A DNA stretch of 64,000 nucleotides from a virus, in IMG/VR virus record IMGVR_UViG_3300045988_183539; one strand, written 5' to 3'. Both the position numbers and the translations under genes were made by a program. Below, piece after piece: positions 749-41,160 of this stretch. Below the pieces are notes generated by a model. That model worked only from the letters and a program-made list of their open reading frames with translations, ran no database searches and had not been told where the DNA came from. How positions within the stretch are numbered: position 1 is the stretch's first letter; each line of letters starts with the position of its first letter.

Positions 749-3217
749 ATGGGATTTGGTAAAAAAAATAAAAATAATATAAATACTGTTGATAATGAAC
801 AGAATAAAAATAAAAAGAAAACTAATAAAAAGAAGATTAAAATACCTAAAACAGTTCAAGATACTTTAGATTGGGAATGTGTTTTTGAAAATGGTGTTTT
901 TCAAATAGGTCCTAAAAGATTTTCTAAAACTTTTTATTTTGAAGATATTGCTTTTAAAACAAAATCTGATGAAGACCAGATGGCTATTTATCAGGCATAT
1001 TTAAGATTTCTTAATTCTATAAATCCTGATGAAGATTTATTTATTACTTTTGTTAATTATAAAGATGATGAAAATGCTAAGTTAGCGGCAATCCTTCCTA
1101 TAAATAAAGATGATGGCTTTAATAATTATAGAAAAGAATTAGGAACTATTTTAAGAAATAATATTAAATTAAGTAGAAATGCTATATCTACAAAAAGATA
1201 TATTACTGTTTATGTAAATGCAGATACAGTTGATAATGCAATGTTGAGACTAAATGAATTAGAAACAACTTTAGAAAATGCTTTTAAAAAAATATGTGGT
1301 GCAAAATTAACAGCCATATCTTTAGAAGAAAGATTAGAAGTTATTAATAATATTTTAAATGGCACAGATGAAGCAAACTATTGGTTTGTACACGATAAAA
1401 CAGGAAAAACAACTATAGATTTTAAAGAAATGGCAAGACAAAAGCTTACTACTAAAGATATTATAGCTCCTCAGTCTATGAAATTTTATAGTAATCGTTT
1501 TGAAATTAATGAAAGAATAGGACAGGGAATGTATCTTGATAATTTAGCAAACTGGATGGATACTAATTTTTTACCTAGTCTGATAGCTGTTAATTTTGAG
1601 TCAGTTTTTACTATTCATATATCTGCATTAGAGCAGACAGAAGCAATAAAGAAGGTACATAATAAATCTATTAATATAAATGCTGAAATAGAAGATAAAA
1701 TGGATGCAAGAGCAGCAAAAGGCAAAGACCCTACTTTTATTAATGCAGATTTAAGAAAAGCACAGGCTGAAATAGAAGATTTACAAAATGATATTCAAAA
1801 CAGAGACCAGAAATATTTCTTTATGGATATGTCTATTATTCATTTTGCAGAAAATAAGCAGATTTTAAAAGAACAAGAAAAAATAATAAAAAATAGTGCA
1901 AATAAATATATGTGTTCGATAAAACCAGCTTTAGAACAGCAGGAAAGATGTCTTATTAGTACATTACCTTTGGGTCATAACAAAATGTTCCAGACAAGAG
2001 GTCTTACTACAGAAAATTTAGGAGTTTTCTTACCTTTCGATGAGATAAACCAGTTTGATGTTAATGGTATTTATTATGGAGTAAATGCTATTAATAAATC
2101 TTTAATAGTTTATGACAGAACAAAAGGTATGAATTATAATGGTTTAATTTTTGGTGCTTCTGGTTCTGGTAAATCTTTTAGTGCTAAACGTGAAATAACA
2201 AGTGTTCTTCTTAATAAAAATGCAAATTGTTATATCATAGACCCAGATGATGAATATACACCTATTGCAGATGCATTTGGTGGAACTATAATTAAAATAT
2301 CACCTGGTAATGGTGTTTATATAAATCCCTTCGATTTAGATATAGATACATCTGCTGATAGTGATTTAAACCCTATTACTATGAAGATAGATTTTATTTG
2401 TGGTTTGCTGGAAACAATGATAGGAAATAATGCTAAATTATCTCCAACACAAATTTCTATTGTTACTAGATGTGTACAACAGATATATAGACCTTATTTA
2501 GAGCATTTACAGGAACTCCCTCCAGACGAAAATGGTAGAAAACGTACTATAGATAGAGATTATTGTCCTACAATGCAGAATTTATTTGATGCTTTAATTA
2601 ACCAGCCTCAATCAGAAGCTCAAAACCTTGCCTTAATTATGGAAACATATACAGCAGGAGCATTTGATACATTTGCTCATAGAACAAATGTAGATATAGA
2701 TAATAAGTTTATTATTTTTAATATATCTAACATTGGTACAAACTTAAAAGAATTAGGTCTTAAAATTTGTGTAAACCACGTCTGGAATAAAATGGTAGAA
2801 AACAGAAGAAATAAGAAATGGACTTGGTTTTATATAGATGAATTCCATTTACTTCTTAAGAGCCATTCGACATCAGATTTCATAATGTCTATTTTTAAGA
2901 GAGCTAGAAAGTTCTTAGGAGTTACTACAGGTATTACGCAAAATGTTGGAGATTTACTTAGAACAGAAGATGGACAAGCTATTATTAATAATACATCTTT
3001 CATTTATATGTTAAATCAATCAGCAATGGATAGATATGATTTACAAAAATTATTAAAACTGTCTGATGGAGATGTTGAATATGTTACAAATGTAGAACAA
3101 GGTCACGGTCTTATTTATACAGGAACACAGACAATACCATTTTCTGATGATTTCCCAGAAGATACTAAGTTATATGATATTATGACAACTAAACCTAAAC
3201 AAGAGGAAGTTGCGTAA
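749..3217 (+). CDS. VirB4-like conjugative transfer ATPase (TcpF/Orf16/TrsE class)
   Basis: 822 aa; Walker A GASGSGKSF, Walker B WFYIDEFHLLL, with size and domain order of Gram-positive VirB4 homologs. AAAGGA RBS. Confidence 0.8.
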   Translation: MGFGKKNKNNINTVDNEQNKNKKKTNKKKIKIPKTVQDTLDWECVFENGVFQIGPKRFSKTFYFEDIAFKTKSDEDQMAIYQAYLRFLNSINPDEDLFITFVNYKDDENAKLAAILPINKDDGFNNYRKELGTILRNNIKLSRNAISTKRYITVYVNADTVDNAMLRLNELETTLENAFKKICGAKLTAISLEERLEVINNILNGTDEANYWFVHDKTGKTTIDFKEMARQKLTTKDIIAPQSMKFYSNRFEINERIGQGMYLDNLANWMDTNFLPSLIAVNFESVFTIHISALEQTEAIKKVHNKSININAEIEDKMDARAAKGKDPTFINADLRKAQAEIEDLQNDIQNRDQKYFFMDMSIIHFAENKQILKEQEKIIKNSANKYMCSIKPALEQQERCLISTLPLGHNKMFQTRGLTTENLGVFLPFDEINQFDVNGIYYGVNAINKSLIVYDRTKGMNYNGLIFGASGSGKSFSAKREITSVLLNKNANCYIIDPDDEYTPIADAFGGTIIKISPGNGVYINPFDLDIDTSADSDLNPITMKIDFICGLLETMIGNNAKLSPTQISIVTRCVQQIYRPYLEHLQELPPDENGRKRTIDRDYCPTMQNLFDALINQPQSEAQNLALIMETYTAGAFDTFAHRTNVDIDNKFIIFNISNIGTNLKELGLKICVNHVWNKMVENRRNKKWTWFYIDEFHLLLKSHSTSDFIMSIFKRARKFLGVTTGITQNVGDLLRTEDGQAIINNTSFIYMLNQSAMDRYDLQKLLKLSDGDVEYVTNVEQGHGLIYTGTQTIPFSDDFPEDTKLYDIMTTKPKQEEVA

Positions 3218-3365: not shown

Positions 3366-4175
3366 ATGGAAAATTGGAATAAATATTTTAACGAAAATAC
3401 AGATGATGATAACAATATTGCAAGCAATGTTTATGCAAATAATGTTTCAGAAAACAATGTTACAAATGATTATGAACTTGAAGATAATTTAGAAATAAAT
3501 CAAAATAATGATAATATAGATGATAATGAGTTAGATAAATATTTAGAAAATGAGAATGATAATTTTAGTTTAACAGTAAGTGAGTATAAAACATTTTGTG
3601 ACAGATTATCTGGATTTAATGAAATAGATGAAACTAAAGCAGCTATAACATATCAGTCTTATAATATAAATCCACAAGATGTTAATGAAAATACAACAAA
3701 TGATATTGTATATAATTTAAATAATGCTGTAGCTGAAATTGCTTATGATGAGTTACATCCAGATTTAGCAGTATTATCTATTAAGTTTAAAAGTTTTGAT
3801 GACCCTGAACTTAGACTTTTCTGGTCAAGAATACAAAAATGGAGAACTTCTTTAAGTAGACCACAAGATAATGATGAAATTCCTGTTTTTGTTATTACTC
3901 TTATAGAAAAAGATAGTGTGAATTCTGTAAAAGATAAAGAGCATTATACAATATTATCTGCAAATATTGTAAATCCCTTAATTTGTTATATCACAAGAGA
4001 AATTCCTACAATTTCTGCTGAAAATATAATTAATGAGCGTGATGAAATTATGGGAGGAAATGTTATAAAAATGCTTTTAGCTACAGATTTTTTAACATTT
4101 GAAGTAAGAGATGATATTGATATTTTAAATGTAAAAGCAGAAGTTTTAAGAGAAAATGAAGAAGAAGCTTTATAG
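3366..4175 (+). CDS. hypothetical protein with acidic Asn/Asp/Glu-rich N-terminus
   Basis: 269 aa; GAAAGGAAG RBS. Confidence 0.5.
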   Translation: MENWNKYFNENTDDDNNIASNVYANNVSENNVTNDYELEDNLEINQNNDNIDDNELDKYLENENDNFSLTVSEYKTFCDRLSGFNEIDETKAAITYQSYNINPQDVNENTTNDIVYNLNNAVAEIAYDELHPDLAVLSIKFKSFDDPELRLFWSRIQKWRTSLSRPQDNDEIPVFVITLIEKDSVNSVKDKEHYTILSANIVNPLICYITREIPTISAENIINERDEIMGGNVIKMLLATDFLTFEVRDDIDILNVKAEVLRENEEEAL

Positions 4176-8869: not shown

Positions 8870-10468
8870 ATGAATAATGTAGAAATAAAGAAATATGATG
8901 CTAAAATCAAGGAAATTGATAAAATAATAAACACATATTCTGAGAGTAAAAATTTAGGTATAAAGTTATACTATGTTCCTGAAATATATTCAGAAAATAA
9001 GATTGATTATATAGCAATAAAATCTAATAATGAGTTTTATAAAATTCCTACGATTAAATACAATGATAATCCATTGTATTTAATGAATGTAATTACAAGA
9101 GATTTATGTAATCTGGACTTATTAGAAGTCTTAACAGATGATAAAGTAATAGATGCAATCAAATCTATTTATAAACAGGATATAACATTAAATGAAGCAT
9201 TAAACAACAAAAAAATTGAAAGATTTATAACTCCTATTAAAGAAAGATTAGATGATGTTTTGGAACATATAACATTACCTGCAAGAAGTAATAAGAAAGG
9301 TTTTTATGACAGAACAAAATTAGATGCAATAAAAAGATATGTTGCAGAAAATAGTAATTTTAAACCTGTTTATGAAAACGAATACTGTTTAATTTTTGGG
9401 AAAAAGATGCCAAGAAGTGATGAAAATATATTAATAAGCAGTCATTCTGATATTGTAAATACGATAACAAATGTAAACAGTTCTTATAAGAACGGATTTT
9501 ATCACGGAACATATGATAATTTAGGTACTAATGCGGCAGCAGTATCTATTATGTGTATGAATGAAAATAACTTATCAGATAATGTTTTTTTTGCTTTTAC
9601 TGCTGAAGAAGAGACAGGTAGATGTTTAGGAGCAAAATCAGCTTATCAATTTATGGAAAGAAATTCAAAATATCCAACATTATATGTATCTTTAGATGTA
9701 ACAGATGAAGGATATGATGATAATAGATTATGTTCAATAGAAGGATTACACGCTAACAATGATATTAAAAGTAAAATCGCAGATAGTATGATGATAACTG
9801 AAGGAGAAGAGCAATCATTCTGTGTTATAAAAGCAAAACATAAAGATAGTTCTCCTTTTAATAAAGATTATATTGATGGAAATTATACTGTTTTTGATGA
9901 AGGTGTTTATTATGGTCAGACTTTAAACCAAAATGCATTAAGCTTTTGTTTACCTACTGATGGAAGTATGCATAGTAATACAGGTTTAGATGTTAAAGAT
10001 AGTATATTTACAGGATATATTTTATCGCTTGATACTTTTATACACCAATACACTAATACTAAAAACTTTGAAATTGAAGATATAAAAGATTATAAGGATT
10101 ATCTTGTAAATAAAGCAAAAGAAACAAAGAAAGTCTATGCTTTTGATAATCTTAATTATAGACCTGATTTTAGTTATACGCTAGATGATTATTATGAAGA
10201 AGATGAAGATTTATATGCGGATTCTTTTAGTATTGCTGAATTATATGGAATTGATTTAGATGAAAAAGGAAAAATATCTTCAGATGATATACCATATGAA
10301 TTAGAATCAACATTATCAGAACTTGCAGAAGGATATGGTGCAACTGAAATATATGAATATTTAGCAGATATGGATTGTGAGTTTGGGGGAATTATACCTG
10401 AAGAAGTTTTAGTTCCGATTTTTAATAAATATCACGAACAGGAAGAGGAATTAGATTATACATCCTAA
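8870..10468 (+). CDS. M20/M28/M42-family dinuclear zinc peptidase-like protein with acidic C-terminal tail
   Basis: Motif order H-x-D (SSHSDIV), D-N-x-G (YDNLGTNAAAV), EE (FTAEEETG), D (SLDVTDEG), H (GSMHSNTG), as in M28/M42 aminopeptidases. Confidence 0.5.
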   Translation: MNNVEIKKYDAKIKEIDKIINTYSESKNLGIKLYYVPEIYSENKIDYIAIKSNNEFYKIPTIKYNDNPLYLMNVITRDLCNLDLLEVLTDDKVIDAIKSIYKQDITLNEALNNKKIERFITPIKERLDDVLEHITLPARSNKKGFYDRTKLDAIKRYVAENSNFKPVYENEYCLIFGKKMPRSDENILISSHSDIVNTITNVNSSYKNGFYHGTYDNLGTNAAAVSIMCMNENNLSDNVFFAFTAEEETGRCLGAKSAYQFMERNSKYPTLYVSLDVTDEGYDDNRLCSIEGLHANNDIKSKIADSMMITEGEEQSFCVIKAKHKDSSPFNKDYIDGNYTVFDEGVYYGQTLNQNALSFCLPTDGSMHSNTGLDVKDSIFTGYILSLDTFIHQYTNTKNFEIEDIKDYKDYLVNKAKETKKVYAFDNLNYRPDFSYTLDDYYEEDEDLYADSFSIAELYGIDLDEKGKISSDDIPYELESTLSELAEGYGATEIYEYLADMDCEFGGIIPEEVLVPIFNKYHEQEEELDYTS

Positions 10469-11443: not shown

Positions 11444-11526
11444 CAACGCTTTTTTACACTTAACTACATTATTATTATAAAACTGTTTAATGGTTTTATA
11501 TTTTAATGAATAAAGGAGTAAAATAT

Positions 11527-13353
11527 ATGAACAAAAATGAGTATGTATCATATTTTTTAGAGGACATTGAAGAACTTTTGGTAGATAACGCTAAAAGCTT
11601 TTATAATATTAGTGCAGCTAAGACATATGATGATGACAAAAGTCCAATATTATTAGTAGGTTATCCTAATTCTGCAATGAGAGCATATGAAATCCCATAT
11701 ATAAAAAGAGATATTAAAAATGCTAATGATTATAGAGATATTTTAACAATTTATAGAGATAAAATAAGAGATTTAAAAACAAATATTATTCTTGATATAG
11801 AAAATTATGAAAATACTCTTGATAATATTAATAATTTTAGGAATACTCCAACAAATGTAGAAAATACAGAAATAGCAGAGGAAATTCCTAGAACAAGATT
11901 ACATTCAGATGAATATTATGAAGAGTACGATACAGATTATTATTCTGAATTTATTGATACAGTAAAAGATTGGATTAGAGATTATGAAGTAGAACATAAT
12001 TGTCATATTGATGATGGTGATTATGGAGCATTGTATAATGATTACAATAATAATGATGATAGCTTTTTAGAAACTATGCTTAGTAATCTTGATAAATTTA
12101 ATATAACTTATAATACTGTTTCAGAAGATAGGCAGGAAGAATTTGATAATGCTGTTCAGGACTTAACAAGTACAGAGGAACAGGAGAGTGAAAATCCTTT
12201 AGATACTGATGAAAGAATAGTTCTTAATCATACAGAAGATTATTATGAAGACTTTGACCCTTATGATTTTGAAGAATTTAAGGATGTTGTAAATGATTAT
12301 ATTGAAGATTACAATAAAACAGTTAGTGAAGACAAAAAAGTTCAGAGAGAATCTATTAGTGAATTTATATTAGAAGACCTTTATGAAAATGATTATTTAG
12401 ATGAGCCATTAAGCTTTTATCATTCTTTTTTAGAAGTTATGGAAGATAATATTGGAAAAATTGATTTTGAAGCAATAGAAAGACATAATTTAATTCCAGA
12501 TGAAAATGAATATATACCTCATCATACAAGAGATTATTATGAAGATTATGATACAGATTATTTAGATGAATTCATTGAAACAGCTAAAGAATGGATTGAA
12601 GATTATGAGCATCTAAATAGTGTGACTATAATAATAGATGATGAGGAATTTGAAGACTTAAATGCTATTTATCAGGATAATGATTATAGTTTTAATGCAA
12701 CAATGCTTGATAATATGGGTAAAGTATTCTATGTTATTAATCATCCAGAAGAATATTATAATAGATTAGATGGACTTATTAGCAATAAAGAACATTTTGA
12801 AAAAAATGCTAAGGAATGGATTAATGATAATTTTAAATACTTAGTTATTTTGTCTAAATCTGATATAGATAATATAGATTATAGTGAGATATATAATAAT
12901 TATTGTAATAATGGTATATCATTTGTTGATACAATGCTTAATAGTATGATTAATTATGATTATTTGATAGAAGACCCAAGAGAAGGTATGGTCTTTACTC
13001 AACCTATTAGCCATATTGTAACACAGCAAAATACTATAAATGAAACTGTAAGCACAAATAGAAGAACTCCACAAGAGCTTAGAGAACTTTATAATCAGGC
13101 AAAAGATTTTGAAAATGTAAGAAATAATCTTGAAAAATTCTTACTAACAGATGAAGATAAAACTAATAATAATATTTATGAAAATTCTGACGGGTTTGGT
13201 TATAGAATTATTTTTGATGATAATACTAAATTAAAAGTACCTAAGTCTATGATTACTAAATGGATAGATGATTATGGTATTGATTATATTGAAGAAAACT
13301 TGTTTAATAAGTCATTTGAATGTCAAGATAATGACGAAATATCTTTAGATTAA
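11527..13353 (+). CDS. highly acidic protein with three internal repeats (possible DNA-mimic/anti-restriction-like)
   Basis: AAAGGAG RBS 7 nt before ATG 11527 (the track ORF starts at 11506). Repeats of YYE-[ED]-[YF]D-x-DY...EFI-x-T-x-K-[DE]WI-x-DYE. Very high Asp/Glu/Tyr content. Confidence 0.55.
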   Translation: MNKNEYVSYFLEDIEELLVDNAKSFYNISAAKTYDDDKSPILLVGYPNSAMRAYEIPYIKRDIKNANDYRDILTIYRDKIRDLKTNIILDIENYENTLDNINNFRNTPTNVENTEIAEEIPRTRLHSDEYYEEYDTDYYSEFIDTVKDWIRDYEVEHNCHIDDGDYGALYNDYNNNDDSFLETMLSNLDKFNITYNTVSEDRQEEFDNAVQDLTSTEEQESENPLDTDERIVLNHTEDYYEDFDPYDFEEFKDVVNDYIEDYNKTVSEDKKVQRESISEFILEDLYENDYLDEPLSFYHSFLEVMEDNIGKIDFEAIERHNLIPDENEYIPHHTRDYYEDYDTDYLDEFIETAKEWIEDYEHLNSVTIIIDDEEFEDLNAIYQDNDYSFNATMLDNMGKVFYVINHPEEYYNRLDGLISNKEHFEKNAKEWINDNFKYLVILSKSDIDNIDYSEIYNNYCNNGISFVDTMLNSMINYDYLIEDPREGMVFTQPISHIVTQQNTINETVSTNRRTPQELRELYNQAKDFENVRNNLEKFLLTDEDKTNNNIYENSDGFGYRIIFDDNTKLKVPKSMITKWIDDYGIDYIEENLFNKSFECQDNDEISLD

Positions 13354-13435
13354 AAAATAATAATATAAAGTCCTTTAAAGTAATAATAATTGCATTATTT
13401 TAAAGGGCTTATATTTATATATAGTACAATAATAA

Positions 13436-13529: not shown

Positions 13530-14300
13530 ATGTATTGGGAAAATATAGAAGAACAAGTATGGAATAATGCTAGTTTTGTAAATAGTAAAGAAATACAAGA
13601 GATTAGAAGTAAACAATTTAAAAATCCTGTTATTTATGTTGATATGGATGGTACATTGTTTCAATGGAATAGATTAAAAAGTAAAGAATACCCAGATGGT
13701 GTTACTTTAGAAATGGTTTATTCACCTGGTTATTTTAGAAATTTAAAACCTAATTTAGGTATTTTAGAATTAGTAAATGCTTTACACGATAAAGGATATG
13801 ATATAAAGATAGCATCTAAATCTAGTTATACAGCTATAAAAGAAAAATTTGATAGCTTAATGGAATATTTACCTTTTTTAAACAAAAATGATATTTATTT
13901 TATTCCTTTAAATGCAAATAAGTCAGATTTTCTTCCAAATATAAAATCTAATGATATTTTAATAGATGACTATAATCCTAATTTAGATGAATTTAAAGGA
14001 AGTGTTATAAAATGTGTTACAGATATTAATACAATAAATCCTAAATACCCTTGGATTGAAAATAATGCTCCAGTTTATAAAAATATAGATAAAATAACTT
14101 GGACTTTAATAAGAGAATGGAAGTTTTCACAAAATTCAGAAAATCCTTTAAACTTTACAGATTTAAAATACATTTTTGATAAAAGTGTTATGTCTTTTGA
14201 AGATTTTTATAATATATGTAATGGTTTTAATATTAATTTAGATGAGTTTGCTTTTTTAAAAACAGAAAATGAAAAAGATGAAGAAGAAATAGAAATATAA
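13530..14300 (+). CDS. HAD-superfamily 5'(3')-deoxyribonucleotidase-like protein
   Basis: N-terminal VIYVDMDGTLFQW (DxDGT HAD motif I in the NT5C-like context); 256 aa. Confidence 0.55.
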   Translation: MYWENIEEQVWNNASFVNSKEIQEIRSKQFKNPVIYVDMDGTLFQWNRLKSKEYPDGVTLEMVYSPGYFRNLKPNLGILELVNALHDKGYDIKIASKSSYTAIKEKFDSLMEYLPFLNKNDIYFIPLNANKSDFLPNIKSNDILIDDYNPNLDEFKGSVIKCVTDINTINPKYPWIENNAPVYKNIDKITWTLIREWKFSQNSENPLNFTDLKYIFDKSVMSFEDFYNICNGFNINLDEFAFLKTENEKDEEEIEI

Positions 14301-21989: not shown

Positions 21990-23105
21990 ATGGAAAATAC
22001 AAATACATCTTTAACATTAGATGAAATAATAGAAAAGAACAGAAAAGATTTATTTTCAGAATTAAATGAATTCTTAGATAATGAAAAGATAACAGATATT
22101 GAATGGGATGGCGAACATTTATGGATAACAGAGTTAGGAAAAGGCTGTTATCCTGTTGATAAAAAATTATCTATAGATTTTGTGAATAATTTAAGTATCA
22201 GATTATCAAATATAATGAAAACTAATTTTAATGCTTTAAACCCTATATTGGAAGCACATACAAAAGAATTAAGAATATCAATCTTTCACGAAAGCAGAAC
22301 TGGGGAAAAATCTATAACTATTAGGAAAATTCCTACAAATATAAGATATAACCACGAAAAATTAGTAAAAGATAATACAATCCCAGAAGAATTATTAAAC
22401 CTATTAGAAAATTGTGTTAAAGCACATTGTAATATAGTTGTTGGAGGAAGACCTCACGCAGGAAAAACAGAATTAGTTAAATACTTATCTAATTTTATAC
22501 CAGCAAATGAGAAAGTAGTGACATTAGAGGATAATGCAGAAATCCATTATAGAGAAATACATCCTAATAGAAAGAGTGTATCATTTTTAGTTGATGATAA
22601 AGTAACATATTCAGATGCTATTAAGGCTTGTTTGAGACATAATGCTGATTGGTTACTATTATCTGAAGCAAGAGGACCAGAGATTATTGAACTTCTTAAT
22701 GCACTTAGTACAGGAAGTTATTGTATGACGACAGTACACGTAGATGGAGCTAAAGACATTCCTGATAGAATGTATAATATGCTTAATAATAGTAGTATAA
22801 ATGAAAGATTTATCAATAACATATATCGTTATATGGATGTAGGAATAATAATAAAAGCTGATAAAAAAGAAAACAGAATTATATCAGAAGTTGGATTTTT
22901 TAACAGAGCAAATGTTAAGAATGAAGATGGAGAATATGAAATGCAGAACATTTATACACCTTTTTATAATACATTTGAAGGGTTAAAAGATAAAGATAAG
23001 TTACCTATAAATATCCAAAGAGCATTTGTAAGAGAAAATATTAAAAATCCATTTGAAAAACCAGAAATTACTGATGAAATAAAGGAAGTTTCTGTAAATG
23101 GTTAA
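21990..23105 (+). CDS. TadA/CpaF/VirB11-family secretion ATPase
   Basis: Walker A VVGGRPHAGKTE, Walker B/Asp box WLLLSEARGPE, 371 aa. Confidence 0.7.
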   Translation: MENTNTSLTLDEIIEKNRKDLFSELNEFLDNEKITDIEWDGEHLWITELGKGCYPVDKKLSIDFVNNLSIRLSNIMKTNFNALNPILEAHTKELRISIFHESRTGEKSITIRKIPTNIRYNHEKLVKDNTIPEELLNLLENCVKAHCNIVVGGRPHAGKTELVKYLSNFIPANEKVVTLEDNAEIHYREIHPNRKSVSFLVDDKVTYSDAIKACLRHNADWLLLSEARGPEIIELLNALSTGSYCMTTVHVDGAKDIPDRMYNMLNNSSINERFINNIYRYMDVGIIIKADKKENRIISEVGFFNRANVKNEDGEYEMQNIYTPFYNTFEGLKDKDKLPINIQRAFVRENIKNPFEKPEITDEIKEVSVNG

Positions 23106-24597
23106 TACATTTAATAAAATAAAAGATTATTTCTCTTTAAAGCAGATGAAAAAAGAAATCTATGGTTATGGTTATACTGTATCAGGAATAAAATATTTAT
23201 TAATGACAATTATAAGTATATTAATAACAATAGGTTTTAGCTTATTATATCAAATGCAGATTGGCTATACAATAATAGTTGCGTTCCTATCTTTTGCTGT
23301 TATTCCTTTACTAATAAGAGCAAAATTTATTAATTTATATCAGAAAAAACGATTTAATGAAGTAGATATATATTTACATCAGATGGTTTATTCATTTCAG
23401 AAAAAACCTAAGATATTAACAGCTCTTGAAGATACAGTAAAAGTAAGTACAGGTAAATTAAAAAAGACCTTAGAAATAGCTATTGAAAACTTATATACAA
23501 GTTCTTCTGAAAGTTTGTATGAAGAGTCATTTAAAATAATAGAAAAAGAATATAATAATTCCAGAGTAAAAGCGTTAAACAAATATATGTTAAATATAGA
23601 AAAAACAGGTGGAGAGTATTCTAATTCTATTAATATTATGCTTGTAGATATTGATAGCTGGATAAATAGAACATATATGGAACAAGCAGAAGTAGAACGT
23701 ATTAAATTTACCAATATGATAGGTTTATTAATAGGCTTTATAATGGGTAGCGTTTGTTCAATTTTTTCTTATTATATGAACCATAGCCAATATGTATCTG
23801 TAAATGGAAGTGTAGCTGATGATGTATTATATCAGATTGGATGTTTAGTATTTTTAGTTGTATGTGTATTATTTTATACATATACACAAGTTGGATATAA
23901 CAGAGATTGGGTATCCAAAGAATTAAATAAAAAAACAGTAATGAAAGATTATAAAACAGCAACAGAATTTAATCCTAACAAGCTTAGAATAATGAGTATA
24001 CCAATATATATATTTTTCATTATTTTAGCAATAGTTATATATTTTATAAAGGCAATTCCTTTTAGAGGATTTATTTCTATAGGTCTTATAGCTTTTGATA
24101 TATATTTAATAATATCACCTAAATTACAAAAAAATGGAGCTGTTGCAAGAACCAAAAAGAACATTCAGAATAGTTTCTCAGAATGGTTAAGAGATGTTTC
24201 ATTGAATTTACAAAAAGAACCATTGTTGTCTGCTATTCAGGATACATATGATGAATGTCCTGTAGTATTAAAACCAGAATTAGAATTATTTTTAACAAGA
24301 ATAGAAGAAAATCCAACAGCAGTAGAACCATATTATGAATTTTTAGCAAGATTTCGTATTTTAGATATAAGTTCTGCCATTAGAAATTTATATTCTATCT
24401 CAGACAATAATTCAGAAGATATGGATAAACAGTTAAATTCTTTAATAGAAAGAAATTATAGTATTATAAATAAAAATGAAATAGCATCATATGAAGATAG
24501 AAATGCAGCACTGCATTTTTCTGAAAACATTCCTATAATTATAGCCAGTATTAAGTTGGGAATTGATATGTTAGCTTTAATTTCAATATTTATTTAA
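23098..24597 (+). CDS. TadB/TadC (GspF-like) polytopic membrane protein
   Basis: 499 aa with two clusters of TM helices separated by cytoplasmic domains; overlaps the ATPase stop by 8 nt. Confidence 0.5.
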   Translation: MVNTFNKIKDYFSLKQMKKEIYGYGYTVSGIKYLLMTIISILITIGFSLLYQMQIGYTIIVAFLSFAVIPLLIRAKFINLYQKKRFNEVDIYLHQMVYSFQKKPKILTALEDTVKVSTGKLKKTLEIAIENLYTSSSESLYEESFKIIEKEYNNSRVKALNKYMLNIEKTGGEYSNSINIMLVDIDSWINRTYMEQAEVERIKFTNMIGLLIGFIMGSVCSIFSYYMNHSQYVSVNGSVADDVLYQIGCLVFLVVCVLFYTYTQVGYNRDWVSKELNKKTVMKDYKTATEFNPNKLRIMSIPIYIFFIILAIVIYFIKAIPFRGFISIGLIAFDIYLIISPKLQKNGAVARTKKNIQNSFSEWLRDVSLNLQKEPLLSAIQDTYDECPVVLKPELELFLTRIEENPTAVEPYYEFLARFRILDISSAIRNLYSISDNNSEDMDKQLNSLIERNYSIINKNEIASYEDRNAALHFSENIPIIIASIKLGIDMLALISIFI

Positions 24598-26017: not shown

Positions 26018-27286
26018 ATGGAAAAAATAAAATATTCAGCTAGTGAAAAAAAGAATAGACATTTGTTATTTGAAACTAATAAAAATTTATTTATTACAGG
26101 AGCAGGAGGTACAGGAAAATCTACTTTTCTAAATGAATTTATAGAAAAGAACCCTAATACAATAGTAACAGCTCCAACAGGAATAGCGGCTGTAAATATA
26201 GGAGGAGTAACAACTTTTAATGCTTTTAGTATACCAATACCTTGTTTTGGAGCTACAACAAATAAACTGACTGAAGCAAAATTAAAGAAGATAATTATGG
26301 TTGATAATGTAATTATTGATGAAATAAGTATGTGCAGAGTAGATGCTTTTGTTTATATCACAAAGGTAATTAAAAAAGCTGAAAAGATAAAAGGTAAGAA
26401 GATAAGAATTATTGTTAGTGGGGATTTCTCACAGCTTCCTCCTGTAATTACAGATGAAGATGCTAAAATGTTAAAAAAATTTGGTTTTCATAAGTCTGGG
26501 TTGCCTTTTACTTGTAAAGAGTGGGAAAATTGTCATTTTACTACTATAGAGCTTACAGAAGTTAAAAGACAGGATAATCTTGAATTTATAGAAAACTTAA
26601 ATAAAGCCAGATTAGCAGATAAAAAATGTATAACATATTTTAATCAGTTTGTAACAGATGAAATTCCAGATGATTGTATTCATATATGTGGAACTAACGC
26701 AGAAAGTTCTAAACTTAATAAAGAATATTTGGACTCATTAGAGGGTATGCCATATGCGTATCAGGCAGTAAAACAAGGAAGAACTACAGGAGCATATGTA
26801 GATGATATTATTATTCTTAAAGATGGAGCAAATGTATATTTTACAGTCAATGATATATACGAGCATAAATATGTTAATGGAACATTTGGAAAAATACATA
26901 AATGTTTTAATGACCATATAGAAGTAGAAGTTGATGAAGAAATAATAGATGTTTACCCACACAGATATTCGGTTTATAATTATAAAATTATAAATGGAGT
27001 ATTAAAGAAAGAAGAAATTGGTTCAGTTTTACAAATGCCTTTAAAATTAGCTAAAGCAATTACTGTGCATAAATCCCAAGGCAAAACTTTTAATAAAGAA
27101 GTGTTTACACCTAAAATATTCGCAGCAGGACAGGCTTATGTTGCATTAAGCAGAGTAAGAAATCCTGAAGGTTTATTTTTAACAGAACCTTTACTTCCAG
27201 AACAATTAATGTCAGACAGAACAGTACTTAAATTTTATAAAAATAATTATAAATTTGAAAGTAATCGTAAAAAAACAGAAAAATAA
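26018..27286 (+). CDS. Pif1/RecD-family (AAA_30 + UvrD_C_2) DNA helicase
   Basis: ITGAGGTGKST Walker A, APTGIAAVNIGG, IIDEISM Walker B, TVHKSQGKTF, AAGQAYVALSRVRNPEGLF C-terminal motif. Confidence 0.75.
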   Translation: MEKIKYSASEKKNRHLLFETNKNLFITGAGGTGKSTFLNEFIEKNPNTIVTAPTGIAAVNIGGVTTFNAFSIPIPCFGATTNKLTEAKLKKIIMVDNVIIDEISMCRVDAFVYITKVIKKAEKIKGKKIRIIVSGDFSQLPPVITDEDAKMLKKFGFHKSGLPFTCKEWENCHFTTIELTEVKRQDNLEFIENLNKARLADKKCITYFNQFVTDEIPDDCIHICGTNAESSKLNKEYLDSLEGMPYAYQAVKQGRTTGAYVDDIIILKDGANVYFTVNDIYEHKYVNGTFGKIHKCFNDHIEVEVDEEIIDVYPHRYSVYNYKIINGVLKKEEIGSVLQMPLKLAKAITVHKSQGKTFNKEVFTPKIFAAGQAYVALSRVRNPEGLFLTEPLLPEQLMSDRTVLKFYKNNYKFESNRKKTEK

Positions 27287-29013: not shown

Positions 29014-29580
29014 TTACTTATTATTGATTTCCTTTTCTTTATTAAAAAATGCTAACCCTATACAAATACTGTCAGCAATATCGTCACTAACATCTATATC
29101 GTATATTTGTTTTACTAATTCGATAGCTCTATTTTTTAATTCTTTTCTTTTTAATTTTACTTTATTTTCTGAATTAGGTATTCCTACAGCTTTTCTCCAA
29201 ACAGTAGGAGAGTAGAAATATATCAAACATCTCTTATGTTCTATTGAATAACTAAGAACTAAGCCTTGTATATGACATAACTTTTTATAAGCATATCCAT
29301 CTTTTCCCATATAAGTATCTTCAATAACTATTACTTTAGGTTTATATTTTTTTAGATAAATATTAATTCCTTTTATCATTTCAATTATTCGATAATCCAT
29401 ATTTTTCTTTTTTATTTCATTTTCCTCTTGTTTATTCATATTTTTATTTGTTTCATAAGGATTATCTGGTTTAATATAAGTGTAATCTATAAGTTCTTTT
29501 GTATTATAATCAAAAACAGCAATACCAGTATTTGTTGTACTTCCATCTATGCTGATTAAATATTGCTTTATTTTATTCAT
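29014..29580 (-). CDS. RuvC-family Holliday junction resolvase-like protein
   Basis: N-terminal ISIDGSTTNTGIAVFD (RNase H-like first Asp motif), C-terminal DIADSICIGLAF. Confidence 0.6.
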   Translation of the reverse strand: MNKIKQYLISIDGSTTNTGIAVFDYNTKELIDYTYIKPDNPYETNKNMNKQEENEIKKKNMDYRIIEMIKGINIYLKKYKPKVIVIEDTYMGKDGYAYKKLCHIQGLVLSYSIEHKRCLIYFYSPTVWRKAVGIPNSENKVKLKRKELKNRAIELVKQIYDIDVSDDIADSICIGLAFFNKEKEINNK

Positions 29581-31219: not shown

Positions 31220-32788
31220 ATGAGTATTGGAATATTTATAGCTGTAGTAGTTGTAGCTTTATTATTAATGAGTTATATAAAAGCACCAACAGATAAGGCT
31301 TTTATTGTATCAGGCTTAAGGAAGAAGCCTAAGTATGTAATAGGAAGGTCAGCACTTCGTATTCCATTTTTACAGAGAGTAGATAAGCTTGATTTAAAAA
31401 TGATTAGTGTTGATGTAAAAACTAAAGAGTCAGTTCCTACAAATGAATATATTAATGTAAATATTGATTCAGCAGTTAAAATTAAGGTTGGTTTATCACC
31501 AGATATGTTAGAAAAGGCAGCTAATAACTTCTTAAATAAAAATGATTTATATATTAGAGACCAGGTTGTTGATGTACTTGAAGGTAATGTTCGTGAAATT
31601 ATTGGGCAGATGAAGCTTGAAGAAATTGTTCAGGATAGAAAGTTATTTGCTGAAAAGGTACAGGAAAACGCTGCTCCAGATATGGAAAAGATGGGTCTTG
31701 AAATAGTAAGTTTTAATGTACAGAATGTTACTGATGAAGGCAATGTTATTGAAAACTTAGGTATTGATAGAGTAGTAAGTATTTCTAAGTCAGCACAGAT
31801 TTCAAGAGCAGAAAGTGAAAGAGATATTGCTGTTGCTAAAGCTAATGCTGAAAAACAGGCTAATGATGCAAGAATTGAAGCAGAAACAGCTATTGCAGAA
31901 AGAAATAACGAACTTGAAATTAAAAAGCAGGAGTTAAAGAAGGCTGCTGATATTAGAAAAGCTGAAGCAGATGCCGCTTATGAAATTCAGGAACAGGAAC
32001 AACGAAAGACTATTGAAATCACAACTGCAAATGCTAATATAGCAAAGCAGGAAAAGGAGATTGAACTTAGAGAAAAGGAAATTGCTGTTAAGGAAAAGAC
32101 ACTTGATGCTGAAATCCGTAAACAGGCAGAAGCAGAAAAGTATGCCGCACAGCAGAAGGCAGATGCAGACCTTTATTTAAGACAGAAGGAAGCAGAAGCA
32201 AAGCAGTTTGAAATTGTTAAACAAGCTGAGGCTAAGAAATCACAGGCAGAAGCAGATAGATTTGCTAAGGAACAGGAAGCAGAAGCTATTAAGGCACAGG
32301 GATTAGCAGAAGCAGAGAGCATTAAGGCTAAAGGTGTTGCTGATGCTGAAAGTATTAAGGCAAAGGGTATGGCAGAAGCAGAAGCTATGGAAAAGAAGGC
32401 AACTGCCTATGAGAAGTATGGTAAGGCTGCTATGACTGATATGATTATTAAGATACTTCCAGAAATGGCAGGACAGATTGCTAAACCTCTTGAAGCCATT
32501 GATAAGGTTACTATTATTGATGGTGGTAATGGTGAAACAGGGGTAGGTTCATTTAGTGGTAATGTTCCTTCAGTACTTGCAAAGACTATTGAATCTGTTA
32601 AGGAAACAACAGGATTTGACCTTACAGAGGTTATGAAAGCTAATACATATGATGCTAAAACAACTAAGAATGTTAATTTTACAGGACTTCCTAATGAAGT
32701 TAATGTAGATGCTTCTAATGTTTCTGATATAGAAGATGTGTTTGAAAATACTGATTTTGATAAGGCTATGAAAAAGCTTTCTGATTAA
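31220..32788 (+). CDS. flotillin-like SPFH/band-7 protein
   Basis: N-terminal TM helix, SPFH-like region, long Ala/Glu/Lys coiled-coil with EA repeats typical of FloT/YqiK. Confidence 0.7.
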   Translation: MSIGIFIAVVVVALLLMSYIKAPTDKAFIVSGLRKKPKYVIGRSALRIPFLQRVDKLDLKMISVDVKTKESVPTNEYINVNIDSAVKIKVGLSPDMLEKAANNFLNKNDLYIRDQVVDVLEGNVREIIGQMKLEEIVQDRKLFAEKVQENAAPDMEKMGLEIVSFNVQNVTDEGNVIENLGIDRVVSISKSAQISRAESERDIAVAKANAEKQANDARIEAETAIAERNNELEIKKQELKKAADIRKAEADAAYEIQEQEQRKTIEITTANANIAKQEKEIELREKEIAVKEKTLDAEIRKQAEAEKYAAQQKADADLYLRQKEAEAKQFEIVKQAEAKKSQAEADRFAKEQEAEAIKAQGLAEAESIKAKGVADAESIKAKGMAEAEAMEKKATAYEKYGKAAMTDMIIKILPEMAGQIAKPLEAIDKVTIIDGGNGETGVGSFSGNVPSVLAKTIESVKETTGFDLTEVMKANTYDAKTTKNVNFTGLPNEVNVDASNVSDIEDVFENTDFDKAMKKLSD

Positions 32789-32940: not shown

Positions 32941-32959
32941 AAAATTGAGGATTTATATT

Positions 32960-33847
32960 ATGAAAGATTGGATAAAAAATATTCATACCATTGATAAGAC
33001 TTGTGTAAATTCTGAAGGGGAATATTATAAATATACAGAATTTAACAGAAAGCCAATATCTTTATATATCGTTGTAACAAGAGATTGTAATGCCAGATGT
33101 CCTTTTTGTGAATATAGAGGAAAACTAAAAAAAATCAATATCAATAAATTTGAAGAAATTTTTATTGAGTTAAGTAAATATTATGATATTACAACAGTTC
33201 ATTTTACAGGTGGAGAACCTACCTTAGAATTAGATACAATTAATGTATTAAGCAAAGTCATAAAAGAAATTTCTCCTTTAACTAAAACAAGCGTTAACAC
33301 CAATGGAATATTCTTAAATGAATTGTCTAATATAGATACAATAGATAATATTGCTTTAAGCAGACACACTATTATAGATAAAGATAATTTTAATATTTTT
33401 AGAACCAATAATATCGCTACATATGAAAATATTTATAATAATAATTATAAGGAAAAAATTCATTTAAGCTGTAATCTTATAAAAGGATATATAGATAGTA
33501 GTGATAAAATATTAGAATATCTTGAAATGGCATCTAAATTAGATATTAATGATGTAGGTTTTGTTAGTCTTATGCATATAAATAATTATTGTGAAGAAAA
33601 TTTTGTAGAATTTAGTAATATAATTCCAAAGGAAAAGGATTTTTTTAATAAAACAAGAGATTATAAATGTATTAATAATAAAAATATAATTACTTGCAAG
33701 TGTGAAAATTATCTTTATAGAGCTAAAAATATGAATTTTATATCAATGTATCATAGATATGCTATTAAGAATAATGAAAAAGCAGATTTTCTTGTTTATG
33801 AAAACAATCATTTAAAACAAGGCTTTAATGGAAATATATTAATATAA
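32960..33847 (+). CDS. radical SAM enzyme
   Basis: CNARCPFCEY (CxxxCxxC) near the N-terminus and a GGEP motif (HFTGGEPTL). GAGGA RBS before ATG 32960 (track start 32945). Confidence 0.6.
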   Translation: MKDWIKNIHTIDKTCVNSEGEYYKYTEFNRKPISLYIVVTRDCNARCPFCEYRGKLKKININKFEEIFIELSKYYDITTVHFTGGEPTLELDTINVLSKVIKEISPLTKTSVNTNGIFLNELSNIDTIDNIALSRHTIIDKDNFNIFRTNNIATYENIYNNNYKEKIHLSCNLIKGYIDSSDKILEYLEMASKLDINDVGFVSLMHINNYCEENFVEFSNIIPKEKDFFNKTRDYKCINNKNIITCKCENYLYRAKNMNFISMYHRYAIKNNEKADFLVYENNHLKQGFNGNILI

Positions 33848-33862
33848 AATAAGGAGATAATA

Positions 33863-34201
33863 ATGAATAATATAAGAGAATATTTTTATGAGGTATATAA
33901 GAGAGATTGGATTAATACACATATATCCAATGAAAGATATATAGGGACTATGAATGAATATTATAAGGAAAAGAAAGATAATATAAATTATCCTGATTTT
34001 CCTTCATTTAAAGACTATATAGAAGAAAATGGTTTTGATTTTGGAGAAATTTATTGTAGTTATGATGAATTTTTGGATTTTGAATATCAACAGAAAAATT
34101 ATTGGAAAAGTTTAATTAATGATGAAGAGATTTATGGTGAATATTTAGAAGATTTAGAGATATTAAAAGAAGAAGAAAAAACGGATAATTTAGAAATATA
34201 G
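33863..34201 (+). CDS. hypothetical 112-aa protein
   Basis: AAGGAG RBS. Confidence 0.45.
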   Translation: MNNIREYFYEVYKRDWINTHISNERYIGTMNEYYKEKKDNINYPDFPSFKDYIEENGFDFGEIYCSYDEFLDFEYQQKNYWKSLINDEEIYGEYLEDLEILKEEEKTDNLEI

Positions 34202-40935: not shown

Positions 40936-41160
40936 ATGTTTAAAAAAAATGAAAATTTAAGAGAAAATAATAATAATATGACACAAGAAATGATAGATAT
41001 ATTAAAAAATATATCAGATTTATGTTATAAGGCAAGTAATGAAGTCTATGAGGATGATGATAAAGAAAAAGGAACTGCAAAGATATTAATTTTATGTGAT
41101 AATCTAAATGAAGTTATTGATGATTATATAGATAATTATGAAGATATAGAATTAGATTAA
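40936..41160 (+). CDS. small acidic Cys-containing protein, paralog of 34214-34426
   Basis: See 34214. Confidence 0.5.
   Translation: MFKKNENLRENNNNMTQEMIDILKNISDLCYKASNEVYEDDDKEKGTAKILILCDNLNEVIDDYIDNYEDIELD

What the first reader, a model, noticed from the sequence alone, without database searches (positions are those of the whole stretch)
11527..13353. 615-aa hyper-acidic protein built from three divergent repeats
The segment YYE-E-YDTDYY-x-EFI-x-T-x-K-[DE]WI-x-DYE...DD...L-x-x-x-Y-x-DNDYSF-x-x-TML-x-N recurs at about 11905-12100 and 12523-12720. A shorter copy (DYYEDFDPYDFEEFKDVVNDYIEDYN) occurs at about 12235-12330. Extremely acidic proteins placed early in a transfer region are typical of anti-restriction DNA mimics (ArdA/Ocr-like). 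A triplicated architecture would be unusual.
Basis: partly seen in the sequence, partly recalled or inferred. Interest (0 to 1): 0.55.

Follow-up and report, generated by a model that had tools for sequence, protein, structure and literature searches.

The report
Hyper-acidic four-repeat protein, giant conjugative element
A real 608-residue, extremely acidic soluble protein carries four (not three) copies of a previously undescribed ~70-residue helical domain; it sits next to the DNA-transfer machinery of an uncultured giant gut mobile element, is unrelated to the known DNA-mimic proteins ArdA and Ocr, and may still act as a polyanionic decoy.

Summary
The ORF is real. Its likely start is 11527, giving 608 aa; 615 aa counts from an upstream ATG with no ribosome-binding site. 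It is the most negatively charged protein in the window (pI 4.1, 24% D+E, net -94 on the 615-aa reading).

The repeats are real and far above chance, but there are four full units, not three.

The family is tiny: 9 clusters at 50% identity among 1.84 billion representatives. All come from 244-822 kb, ~25% GC gut-metagenome contigs, mostly in the same place: after a Gram-positive-type T4SS block and before an NT5C-like nucleotidase. Members share an N-terminal domain, poly-acidic linkers, 1-4 repeats, an optional DUF5688-like domain and an acidic tip with a hydrophobic residue.

My best reading, with no direct evidence, is a polyanionic decoy or adaptor for basic DNA-binding proteins during transfer or establishment.

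The parts
11527..13353 (+). ORF for the 608-aa hyper-acidic repeat protein, stop codon included. An alternative in-frame ATG at 11506 would give 615 aa.
   Evidence: AAAGGAG at 11512-11518 lies 8 nt before the ATG at 11527; homologous contigs aa; no TM segment or signal peptide (maximum Kyte-Doolittle 19-residue mean 0.66).
11527..11838 (+). Conserved N-terminal domain (aa 1-~104): helix, three strands, then long helices. Signature: M-x-K-x-x-Y ... P-[IV]-L-L-V-x-[YF]-P ... R-A-Y-x-I-P-Y.
   Evidence: Alignments A1 and A3: invariant in A1 are M1, K3, Y6, P40, Y46, P47, A53, Y54, Y58. AF2 pLDDT 72-89. Its only fold neighbours are non-significant dsRBD-like/alpha-beta3-alpha hits (E about 1).
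11905..12105 (+). Repeat unit R1 (aa 127-193), net charge -17.
   Evidence: HMM E 1.8e-26; z = 17 against R3.
12106..12231 (+). Acidic linker predicted to be disordered (aa 194-235, ...EDRQEEFDNAVQDLTSTEEQESENPLDTDE...).
   Evidence: pLDDT < 50 for aa 197-227; net -10 per 30 aa.
12232..12465 (+). Repeat unit R2 (aa 236-313).
   Evidence: E 7.7e-20.
12526..12732 (+). Repeat unit R3 (aa 334-402). The copy closest to the family consensus; net charge -18.
   Evidence: E 7e-28. AF2 model of this unit has pLDDT 92.1 and pTM 0.81, with H2-7, H13-31, E34-36, H39-51, H56-62, E68-71.
12748..12963 (+). Repeat unit R4 (aa 408-479).
   Evidence: E 5.2e-24. In one search it aligns with the last unit of every homologue.
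13066..13296 (+). C-terminal domain remnant (aa 514-590). It aligns with the first part of the DUF5688-like domain that relatives P0030 and P0032 carry in full.
   Evidence: Alignment A1. PF18941 is significant in P0030 and P0032 but not in the window protein.
13318..13350 (+). Acidic C-terminal tip CQDNDEISLD. Family equivalents: QDIPFD, QDISLD, DWDIEF, DDLPFN, EEIPFGNE, DFEVGF, YFPFE, DEYSF.
   Evidence: tails of all 34 relatives. (similar tips on neighbouring proteins).
13370..13408 (+). AT-rich hairpin directly after the stop codon, followed by a U-rich stretch; possibly an intrinsic terminator.
   Evidence: -18.8 kcal/mol, z = -4.4, 0 of 200 shuffles as stable. The consensus scan missed it for lack of G+C. 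Function is inferred only.

Best explanation
The gene encodes a soluble, cytoplasmic, beads-on-a-string polyanion.

Architecture (shown):
- a conserved N-terminal alpha/beta domain;
- four copies of a new ~70-residue acidic helical domain, with consensus xxx[YFW]YEDYDTDYxxEFxxxAKxWIxD...ID[YF]xxLNxxYQxNDxSFxxTM;
- disordered D/E-rich linkers between the domains;
- a remnant of a DUF5688-like domain;
- an acidic C-terminal tip with a hydrophobic residue.
Also shown: family conservation and the genomic position.

Function (inferred): it is a conserved accessory of the transfer region of a clade of giant (>=244 kb), ~25% GC gut conjugative elements. It most likely acts as a nucleic-acid-like decoy or adaptor. 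The acidic domains and linkers would occupy the DNA-binding surfaces of basic proteins, such as restriction or other defence nucleases, nucleoid proteins or SSB-type proteins, during transfer or establishment. The N-terminal domain and the C-terminal tip would provide docking. No binding partner, DNA mimicry or anti-restriction activity has been shown.
For: 1. Extreme charge is kept across the whole family: net -57 to -120 and D+E 21-35% in every member, against -14 to -27 in the ordinary DUF5688 proteins examined.
2. The repeats are folded modules, not low-complexity filler. The unit model has pLDDT 92 and pTM 0.81. Aromatic core positions and the polar signature D9, D26, Y49, N52, F56 are kept in all 25 aligned units.
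3. Copy number varies from 1 to 4 and linker length also varies, while the domain signature is kept. This is what a valency-type binder would show.
4. No TM segment or signal peptide, so the protein is cytoplasmic or exported by a non-Sec route.
5. The position is conserved down to ~30% identity. The order is VirB4, a ~240-270 aa protein, a ~1350-1480 aa protein, up to two hydrolase-like genes, THIS gene, then NT5C, in the window, L001, L004, L013 and L015.
6. The T4SS is of Gram-positive type: PrgI plus a VirB4 of the CD1110 family.
7. Precedents: acidic DNA mimics on mobile elements (ArdA, PMC2731889; Ocr, 34 acidic against 6 basic side chains in 116 aa, PMC3439906); anti-defence genes near transfer origins (PMC11541004); conjugative T4SSs that deliver plasmid proteins to recipients (PMC8406263).
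8. An acidic tip with a hydrophobic residue is conserved in all nine clusters. It resembles docking peptides such as the SSB C-terminus D-D-D-I-P-F (my own knowledge).
Against: - One unit (P0032 unit 2) has net charge 0 yet keeps the signature. The conserved D/N/Q/S cluster may matter more than bulk charge, which fits a specific ligand or metal site.
- The leading-region position is not established.
- In one relative (L006) the T4SS block upstream is replaced by helicase and methylase genes, so linkage to the T4SS genes is not obligatory.
- At 608 aa it is about 4-5 times the size of ArdA or Ocr.
Confidence: 0.35

Rival explanations
1. T4SS-linked chaperone or adaptor, or itself a translocated substrate. 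The acidic body would hold basic DNA-processing proteins of the element (relaxase, helicases, SSB-like proteins), much as VirE1 holds VirE2. The acidic tip would dock to a coupling protein or another shared receptor.
For: - Conserved position beside PrgI/VirB4 and upstream of a T2SSE-type ATPase.
- Many neighbouring proteins also end in acidic tips with a hydrophobic residue: Phi-x-L-D-COOH in 4 of 66 window ORFs against about 0.1 expected (my post-hoc estimate), and D+E in the last 10 aa of 0.203 against 0.151 in the body (permutation p = 0.0005).
- Orthologues in L004, L006 and L013 keep this property with different sequences.
- Precedents: the acidic, Phe-terminated tail of F TraD docks to TraM (my own knowledge; the TraD C-terminus/TraM contact is described in PMC8406263), and conjugative T4SSs translocate plasmid proteins (PMC8406263, PMC11288057).
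Against: - No coupling protein or relaxase was identified in the window, and no partner is known.
- The known Agrobacterium VirB/D4 signals are positively charged (cited in PMC8406263).
- The tail enrichment is modest, was found post hoc, and rests on small controls (L008 and L011).
- No signal for a Gram-positive T4SS is defined to compare with.
Confidence: 0.2
2. Divalent-cation (Ca2+/Mg2+) binding or buffering protein. Each repeat would hold a metal through the conserved D-x-D ... D ... N-D-x-S cluster.
For: - The positions kept in all or nearly all units are Asp and Asn (D9, D26, N52), with the neighbouring D11 and D53 in most units. They lie in the two loops YDTDY and YQxNDxSF.
- They persist even in the unit with zero net charge.
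- DYDTDYLDEFIE can be written on the 1-3-5-9-12 spacing of an EF-hand loop (my reading of the sequence).
Against: - No EF-hand or other Pfam family matches the isolated units, even at E <= 10.
- The predicted H1-H2 loop is only about 5 residues long.
- Metal binding gives no obvious rationale for the conserved position in a transfer cluster.
Confidence: 0.12
3. Tandem 'poly-immunity' protein. Each acidic helical unit would neutralise a nuclease or other basic toxin, as Im7/Im9 or barstar do.
For: - Small acidic helical domains of ~70-85 aa in tandem resemble arrays of immunity domains (my own knowledge).
Against: - No adjacent toxin gene. The upstream neighbour is a signal-anchored Amidase_3, whose target is outside the cell.
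- No match to any Pfam family, which includes the immunity families.
- The units within one protein are paralogues of a single type, not a panel of different specificities.
Confidence: 0.08
4. A true, divergent member of the ArdA or Ocr families.
For: Only the acidity and the mobile-element context.
Against: - No profile match, even at E <= 10 on isolated units.
- No PDB sequence match.
- Different size and architecture.
Confidence: 0.02

Closest known systems
ArdA (Pfam PF07275; Tn916 Orf18 structure, PMC2731889)
   Same: Very acidic, cytoplasmic, encoded by a conjugative element of Gram-positive type near transfer genes. Modular, built from several small alpha/beta or helical domains in a row.
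   Different: No sequence or fold similarity. ArdA has three different domains and works as a dimer that mimics 42 bp of DNA. This protein is 608 aa with four paralogous copies of one domain joined by disordered acidic linkers, plus extra N- and C-terminal domains. No anti-restriction activity has been shown.
Ocr (phage T7 gp0.3; PMC3439906)
   Same: Extreme excess of acidic over basic residues and a pI around 4. It is made by an invading element.
   Different: Ocr is 116 aa, a single helical domain, and comes from a phage. No homology or fold match was found.
DUF5688 (Pfam PF18941), function unknown
   Same: Relatives P0030 and P0032 carry a significant DUF5688 match in their C-terminal half. 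When the repeats are deleted in silico, the match lengthens to profile position 66 and the score rises. This suggests the repeats are inserted into a DUF5688-like frame.
   Different: The window protein keeps only the first part of that domain and does not reach the Pfam threshold. The IIPSSxHE motif, of which I-I-P-S-S, H and E are invariant in the six ordinary DUF5688 proteins aligned, is changed or absent in this family. Similarity between the N-terminal domains is not significant by hhalign. Ordinary DUF5688 proteins are ~300 aa, only mildly acidic, and can be chromosomal.
Acidic C-terminal docking tips (SSB D-D-D-[IL]-P-F; F TraD tail binding TraM)
   Same: An acidic run followed by I/L-x-F/L at or next to the C-terminus. 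Three clusters read D-I-P-F-D, D-L-P-F-N and E-I-P-F-G-N-E.
   Different: The window protein reads E-I-S-L-D. Phe is not the last residue in most members, so the free Phe carboxylate used by SSB partners (my own knowledge) is not kept. No partner is known.
HdeA/HdeB fold (PDB 1bg8, 2myj)

Membership tests
ArdA (PF07275) | Significant match to the ArdA sequence profile. | tested here: not met
   hmmscan against Pfam-A: no family for the whole protein at E <= 0.01. No ArdA match for the isolated N-terminal domain, three of the four repeat units (R1, R3, R4; R2 not scanned), the C-terminal region or a two-unit tandem at E <= 10.
ArdA (PF07275) | Elongated fold of three different alpha/beta domains, as in the Tn916 ArdA crystal structure. 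| tested here: not met
ArdA (PF07275) | Inhibits Type I restriction-modification enzymes. | not testable with these tools
   Needs a restriction-alleviation assay.
Ocr (T7 gp0.3) | Sequence profile match or Ocr helical fold. | tested here: not met
DNA-mimic proteins (a functional class, not a homology family) | Low pI and dense acidic residues. | tested here: met
   pI 4.14, D+E 23.9%, net -94. Repeat units average -14.8 per 66 aa.
DNA-mimic proteins (a functional class, not a homology family) | Surface carboxylates spaced like DNA phosphates, and competition with DNA for a DNA-binding protein. | not testable with these tools
No binding data exist.
DUF5688 (PF18941) | Pfam match above the gathering score (34.5 bits). 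| tested here: not met
   Window protein: no hit. Relatives: P0030 49.8 bits, P0032 85.5 bits. The window C-terminus (aa 514-590) aligns only with the first part of their domain.
DUF5688 (PF18941) | Conserved IIPSSxHE motif. | tested here: not met
   I-I-P-S-S, H and E are invariant in the six ordinary DUF5688 proteins aligned. The region is absent from the window protein and reads IPSSTSE or IPSSIEE in P0030 and P0032.
SSB-type C-terminal tip | Acidic run ending in [IL]-P-F as the last residues. | tested here: not met
   The window tip is ...NDEISLD. Relatives have DIPFD, DLPFN and EIPFGNE, where the motif is present but not terminal.
EF-hand calcium-binding motif | Match to EF-hand profiles and a 12-residue loop. 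| tested here: not met
   No Pfam family of any kind at E <= 10 on the isolated single units. The predicted H1-H2 loop is ~5 residues.
Gram-positive-type conjugative T4SS gene cluster (genomic context) | PrgI/VirB3-like protein, VirB4-like ATPase and a cell-wall hydrolase, in that order. | tested here: met
   PF12666 PrgI (339-728, E 1.9e-12, two TM segments). VirB4-like ATPase with 34-36% identity over 95% of its length to plasmid genes annotated as CD1110 family. Amidase_3 with a signal anchor.
Plasmid leading-region anti-defence gene | Located just inside oriT, on the strand that enters the recipient first. | not tested
   No oriT or relaxase was located in the window. Only +/-10 kb of each related contig could be read.

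The most novel reading that the evidence does not exclude
The acidic tip of this protein (EISLD, or DIPFD in relatives) is one instance of a shared C-terminal signal. A whole set of soluble proteins of these giant elements carries similar tips: the NT5C-like nucleotidase, the M20-like protein, a HipA_C-like kinase and several small proteins. The signal would mark them for a common receptor, for example as substrates of the Gram-positive-type T4SS delivered into recipients. The four-repeat polyanion would be the flagship anti-defence cargo. That would define a first substrate signal for a Gram-positive conjugative T4SS, together with a new DNA-mimic fold.
Probability: 0.1. Interest if true: 0.8.

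Novelty: new variant of a known kind. Interest (0 to 1): 0.5.

Why it matters
If the polyanion is a decoy for restriction or other DNA-binding defence proteins, it would be a new fold of DNA mimic. It would be far larger than ArdA or Ocr and multivalent, with a copy number that evolution tunes from 1 to 4.

It belongs to a clade of uncultured gut elements of 244-822 kb that are absent from 185,579 species-representative genomes; one contig of this clade is filed as viral in IMG/VR. Understanding how such giant elements establish themselves in new hosts is an open problem.

The shared acidic C-terminal tips, if they are a signal, would make protein delivery by Gram-positive T4SSs directly testable.

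Even on the conservative reading, this is a well-defined new domain family that models with high confidence and could be added to the domain databases.

Tried and rejected
- DNA-level search: megablast and tblastn of the gene against the phage and plasmid collections found no match. BLAST's low-complexity filter may mask part of the query.
- Family libraries: Pfam, PHROGs, NCBIfam and PADLOC gave nothing for the protein. Isolated domains against Pfam at E <= 10 gave nothing credible; the SAM_Exu match (18 bits against a cut-off of 28.9) I treat as noise.
- PDB sequence search with the family profile and the repeat profile: best E 0.19 and 0.017, both short, biased stretches.
- Homology of the N-terminal domain to the DUF5688 N-terminus: hhalign aligned only the first helix (probability 0.3%), so inconclusive.
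- Repeat elsewhere in the window: the repeat HMM against the six-frame translation found only this ORF. The Tyr/Asp-rich C-terminus of the M20-like neighbour (DDYYEEDEDLY) is not a copy.
- Stop-codon recoding (Lak-type megaphage idea): the standard code fits, with TAG used as a stop in 7 of 53 stop-to-stop ORFs of at least 100 aa and only small gains under codes 15 or 4. No Lak phage appeared among the organism names of the tblastn hits for VirB4. Rejected.
- Identity with the 'Hodor' megaplasmids (PMC12934698): rejected, since those have 44.6-47.1% GC and this element ~25%. They are only a conceptual parallel: conjugative megaplasmids filed among huge phages.
- Species genomes: no relative in 185,579 species-representative genomes, so no host could be assigned.
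- Promoter scan: uninformative in this AT-rich DNA, 52 sites against 40 expected.
Full report
**1. The observation**

Searches confirm a + strand ORF ending at 13353. The longest reading starts at the ATG at 11506 and gives 615 aa. The ATG at 11527 is preceded by AAAGGAG (11512-11518) with an 8-nt spacer. Gene callers on near-identical public contigs call a 608-aa product. I therefore use 11527-13353 and 608-aa numbering.

The protein is extremely acidic. On the 615-aa reading it has pI 4.14, D+E 23.9%, K+R 8.6% and net charge -94, together with 10.9% Asn and 8.3% Tyr. This is the largest net negative charge among the 52 + strand ORFs of at least 100 aa in the window, whose median pI is 5.6 and median D+E 14.5%. 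It has no hydrophobic segment: the maximum Kyte-Doolittle 19-residue mean is 0.66. So it is soluble and has no Sec signal.

**2. The repeats**

Local alignments of the units against 500 composition-preserving shuffles gave these results:
- R1/R3: score 157 against 37 +/- 7 (z = 17).
- R1/R4: z = 10.
- R1/R2, R2/R3 and R3/R4: z = 6-7.
- R2/R4: z = 2, the only weak pair.

An HMM built from 60 non-identical units of the family finds four domains in the window protein, and nothing else in the six-frame translation of the 64-kb window:

| Unit | aa (608 numbering) | E-value |
|---|---|---|
| R1 | 127-193 | 2e-26 |
| R2 | 236-313 | 8e-20 |
| R3 | 334-402 | 7e-28 |
| R4 | 408-479 | 5e-24 |

So there are four units, not three. 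The fourth unit (R4, nt 12748-12963) was missed because its N-terminal motif has decayed to YYNRLDG.

At the DNA level only the first ~86 nt of R1-R3 remain repeated, at 69-79% identity. The duplications are old and are maintained at the protein level.

The unit consensus, from 25 diverse units, is xxx[YFW]YEDYDTDYxxEFxxxAKxWIxD-(15-20)-ID[YF]xxLNxxYQxNDxSFxxTM. D9, F16, D26, Y49 and F56 are invariant; Y5 and N52 are nearly so.

**3. Structure**

The full-length AF2 model (12-sequence alignment) has mean pLDDT 71.6 but pTM only 0.27. It shows confident domains (blocks at 72-91) separated by segments below 50, at aa 100-122, 197-227, 322-332, 491-513 and 594-608. This is a beads-on-a-string layout.

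Unit R3, modelled with the 25-unit alignment, gives pLDDT 92.1 and pTM 0.81. It is a compact domain: a short helix, a long helix, a short strand, two helices and a final strand. The repeats are therefore folded modules, and the D/E-rich stretches between them are linkers.

**4. Comparison with known families**

- No Pfam, PHROG, NCBIfam or PADLOC family matches the protein.
- The isolated N-terminal domain, single units R1, R3 and R4, the C-terminal region and a two-unit tandem were scanned against Pfam at E <= 10 (R2 was not scanned in isolation). Nothing credible appeared, and neither ArdA, Ocr nor EF-hand families.
- Profile searches of PDB sequences gave only short, biased matches, at E 0.19 and 0.017.
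- Foldseek of the full model against PDB and BFVD gave no hit at E <= 0.001. The best PDB hits (E about 1) are dsRBD-like alpha-beta3-alpha domains. By their size and topology they presumably match the N-terminal domain, although the output gives no query coordinates; they are not significant.
- The afdb50 library was unavailable.

Membership of ArdA or Ocr is therefore not supported. The functional idea of DNA mimicry is not refuted by this, because DNA mimics do not share a fold.

**5. The family**

A search of 5.8 billion proteins found 30 relatives. An exhaustive HMMER profile search of 1.84 billion cluster representatives found only 9 clusters. All members share the following:
- a ~100-aa N-terminal domain with signature PxLLVx[YF]P...RAYxIPY;
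- poly-acidic, Tyr-containing linkers;
- between one and four repeat units: four in the window lineage, three in P0018-P0021, two in P0022-P0032 and P0035, one in P0033 and P0034;
- an acidic C-terminal tip with a hydrophobic residue: EISLD, DIPFD, DISLD, DIALD, DVPFD, WDIEF, DLPFN, EIPFGNE, FEVGF, YFPFE or DEYSF.

Net charge is -57 to -120 in every member examined. In alignment A1 the window's R3 and R4 align with the two units of the two-unit proteins. R3-R4 is therefore the ancestral pair, and R2 and R1 were added on the N-terminal side.

Some members (P0030, P0032) carry a significant DUF5688 (PF18941) domain after the repeats. When the repeats are deleted in silico, the DUF5688 match extends from profile position 77/78 back to 66/67 and the score rises. 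This suggests the acidic array was inserted into a DUF5688-like frame. However, hhalign does not significantly link the N-terminal domain with the DUF5688 N-terminus.

The window protein keeps only the first part of that C-terminal domain (aa 514-590). It lacks the IIPSSxHE motif, most of which is invariant in the six ordinary DUF5688 proteins aligned. DUF5688 has no known function, and a full-text search found no paper that mentions it. Ordinary members are ~300 aa, mildly acidic, and can be chromosomal.

**6. Genomic context**

The window has ~25% GC with nearly all genes on one strand. Upstream of the gene lie:
- a PrgI-family (VirB3-like) protein with two TM segments (339-728);
- a VirB4-like ATPase (749-3217), whose closest annotated relatives are "VirB4-like conjugal transfer ATPase, CD1110 family" on Bacillota plasmids (34-36% identity over 95% of its length);
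- a 269-aa protein and a 1481-aa protein with no family match;
- an M20-like protein;
- a signal-anchored Amidase_3.

Downstream lie an NT5C-like nucleotidase, several unknown proteins, a YdjM-like protein, a T2SSE-type ATPase with a polytopic 499-aa partner, and a PIF1/Dda-like helicase.

The same gene order recurs around relatives that share only 30-37% identity: L004 and L005 (a Hadza/Nepal gut sample), L007 (by ORF sizes), L013 and L014, and L015 and L016. In one relative (L006) the T4SS block upstream is replaced by a UvrD helicase and an intein-containing DNA methylase, while the downstream block is kept.

The contigs are 244-822 kb. No relative exists in 185,579 species-representative genomes. 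One contig is filed in IMG/VR as viral. The standard genetic code fits. The element resembles in concept the recently described "Hodor" conjugative megaplasmids, which were found among huge-phage collections, but those have 44.6-47.1% GC and are a different group.

A strong AT-rich hairpin follows the stop codon (13370-13408, -18.8 kcal/mol, z = -4.4). The gene may therefore end a transcription unit.

"Transfer region" is thus supported. "Early", in the sense of a leading region, is untested.

**7. How it most likely works**

Shown:
- a soluble polyanion made of folded acidic modules, acidic disordered linkers and conserved end domains;
- strong conservation of charge and of a specific polar and aromatic signature;
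- variable valency;
- a conserved location beside a Gram-positive-type T4SS.

Inferred (confidence about 0.35): the protein acts as a nucleic-acid-like decoy or adaptor for basic DNA-binding proteins during transfer or establishment. This parallels ArdA (PMC2731889) and Ocr (PMC3439906). It also fits the clustering of anti-defence genes near transfer origins (PMC11541004) and the delivery of plasmid proteins through conjugative T4SSs (PMC8406263, PMC11288057).

Against a purely electrostatic mechanism, one unit (P0032 unit 2) has zero net charge but keeps the D/N/Q/S signature. This points to a specific site formed by the YDTDY and YQxNDxSF loops. That could be a contact for a basic side chain, or a metal site, which is the third rival.

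The rivals are:
- a T4SS chaperone, adaptor or substrate (0.2);
- a metal-binding protein (0.12);
- a poly-immunity protein (0.08);
- a true ArdA or Ocr member (0.02).

**8. A side observation that bears on mechanism**

Acidic C-terminal tips with a hydrophobic residue are not unique to this protein. In the window, Phi-x-L-D-COOH ends 4 of 66 ORFs: EISLD, EIDLD, DIELD and LFILD. From residue frequencies I estimate about 0.1 would be expected, but this is a post-hoc estimate. D+E in the last ten residues is 0.203 against 0.151 in protein bodies (permutation p = 0.0005).

Orthologues of the neighbours in L004, L006, L007 and L013 keep such tips with different sequences. The enrichment is stronger in the related loci (0.21-0.33) than in the two unrelated control loci (0.17-0.19), but the samples are small. 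This was found post hoc and needs whole-element statistics. If it is real, it suggests a shared docking or export signal.

**9. Novelty and score**

The repeat is a new domain family with no described relatives. The architecture is unusual for an acidic mobile-element protein. The host element belongs to an undescribed clade of giant conjugative elements.

Function remains inferred. I rate it as a new variant of a known kind (acidic decoy proteins of mobile elements), with interest 0.5.

Noticed in passing
window 1-64000; L001, L004, L006, L007, L013, L015: The window belongs to a clade of uncultured gut elements with contigs of 244-822 kb and ~25% GC. Nearly all genes are on one strand and the standard genetic code fits. 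No relative was found in 185,579 species-representative genomes, and one contig is filed as viral in IMG/VR. The element nevertheless carries a Gram-positive-type T4SS (PrgI plus VirB4 of the CD1110 family). It parallels the 'Hodor' megaplasmids (PMC12934698) in concept but is a different group.
   Followed up: partly
window 3366-4175, 8870-10468, 13530-14300, 33863-34201, 38375-38911, 39528-40781, 40936-41160, 59736-60209; orthologues in L004, L006, L007, L013: Many soluble proteins of the element end in acidic tips with a hydrophobic residue: ENEEEAL, EEELDYTS, DEEEIEI, TDNLEI, DIEEYFSL, DEIDLD, EDIELD, DLFILD. D+E in the last 10 aa is 0.203 against 0.151 in protein bodies (p = 0.0005). Orthologues keep the property with different sequences. 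This may be a shared C-terminal signal.
   Followed up: partly
window 13370-13408: A long AT-rich hairpin (-18.8 kcal/mol, z = -4.4) lies just after the stop codon and is followed by a U-rich stretch. It is terminator-like but was missed by the G+C-based scan.
   Followed up: yes
window 21990-24597: A second secretion-type ATPase (T2SSE family, 371 aa) overlaps the start of a 499-aa protein with about 6-7 predicted TM segments. This pair is conserved in all related loci that reach this far, and could be VirB11-like or a pilus-type motor with its platform.
   Followed up: no
L006 7852-9828: In one related element the gene directly upstream of the acidic-protein homologue is a C5 DNA methylase with intein-related Pfam hits (Intein_splicing weak, Hint_2 faint). 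It is preceded by a UvrD-type helicase, in place of the T4SS block.
   Followed up: no
window 26018-27286, 57002-59674, 29014-29580 (-), 61908-62798, 31220-32788, 32945-33847, 35752-36489, 44546-45136, 39528-40781: The cargo is unusual for a plasmid-like element. It includes two PIF1/Dda-like helicases, a RuvC-like nuclease on the minus strand, a Thg1-like tRNA-His guanylyltransferase, a flotillin/SPFH protein, two radical-SAM proteins, an anthrax-lethal-factor-like (ATLF) domain protein and a HipA_C-like kinase that matches the PADLOC candidate system PDC-M03A.
   Followed up: no
P0032 aa 222-292 (L013 10001-11572): One repeat unit in the most divergent relative has net charge 0 yet keeps the FDTD...D...LNxxYQxNN signature. 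The conserved polar cluster is therefore under selection independently of bulk acidity.
   Followed up: partly
window 10160-10468 (C-terminus of the M20-like protein): The upstream M20-like protein ends in an Asp/Glu/Tyr-rich stretch (…DDYYEEDEDLYADSF…) that looks like the start of a repeat unit. The repeat HMM does not match it.
   Followed up: yes
P0036-P0041; L008 10001-10903; L011 8001-8891: The six ordinary DUF5688 proteins aligned share an IIPSSxHE motif (I-I-P-S-S, H and E invariant), which suggests an active or binding site. They occur both in a 119-kb phage- or plasmid-like bovine contig and in a chromosomal context in a Lachnospiraceae genome.
   Followed up: partly
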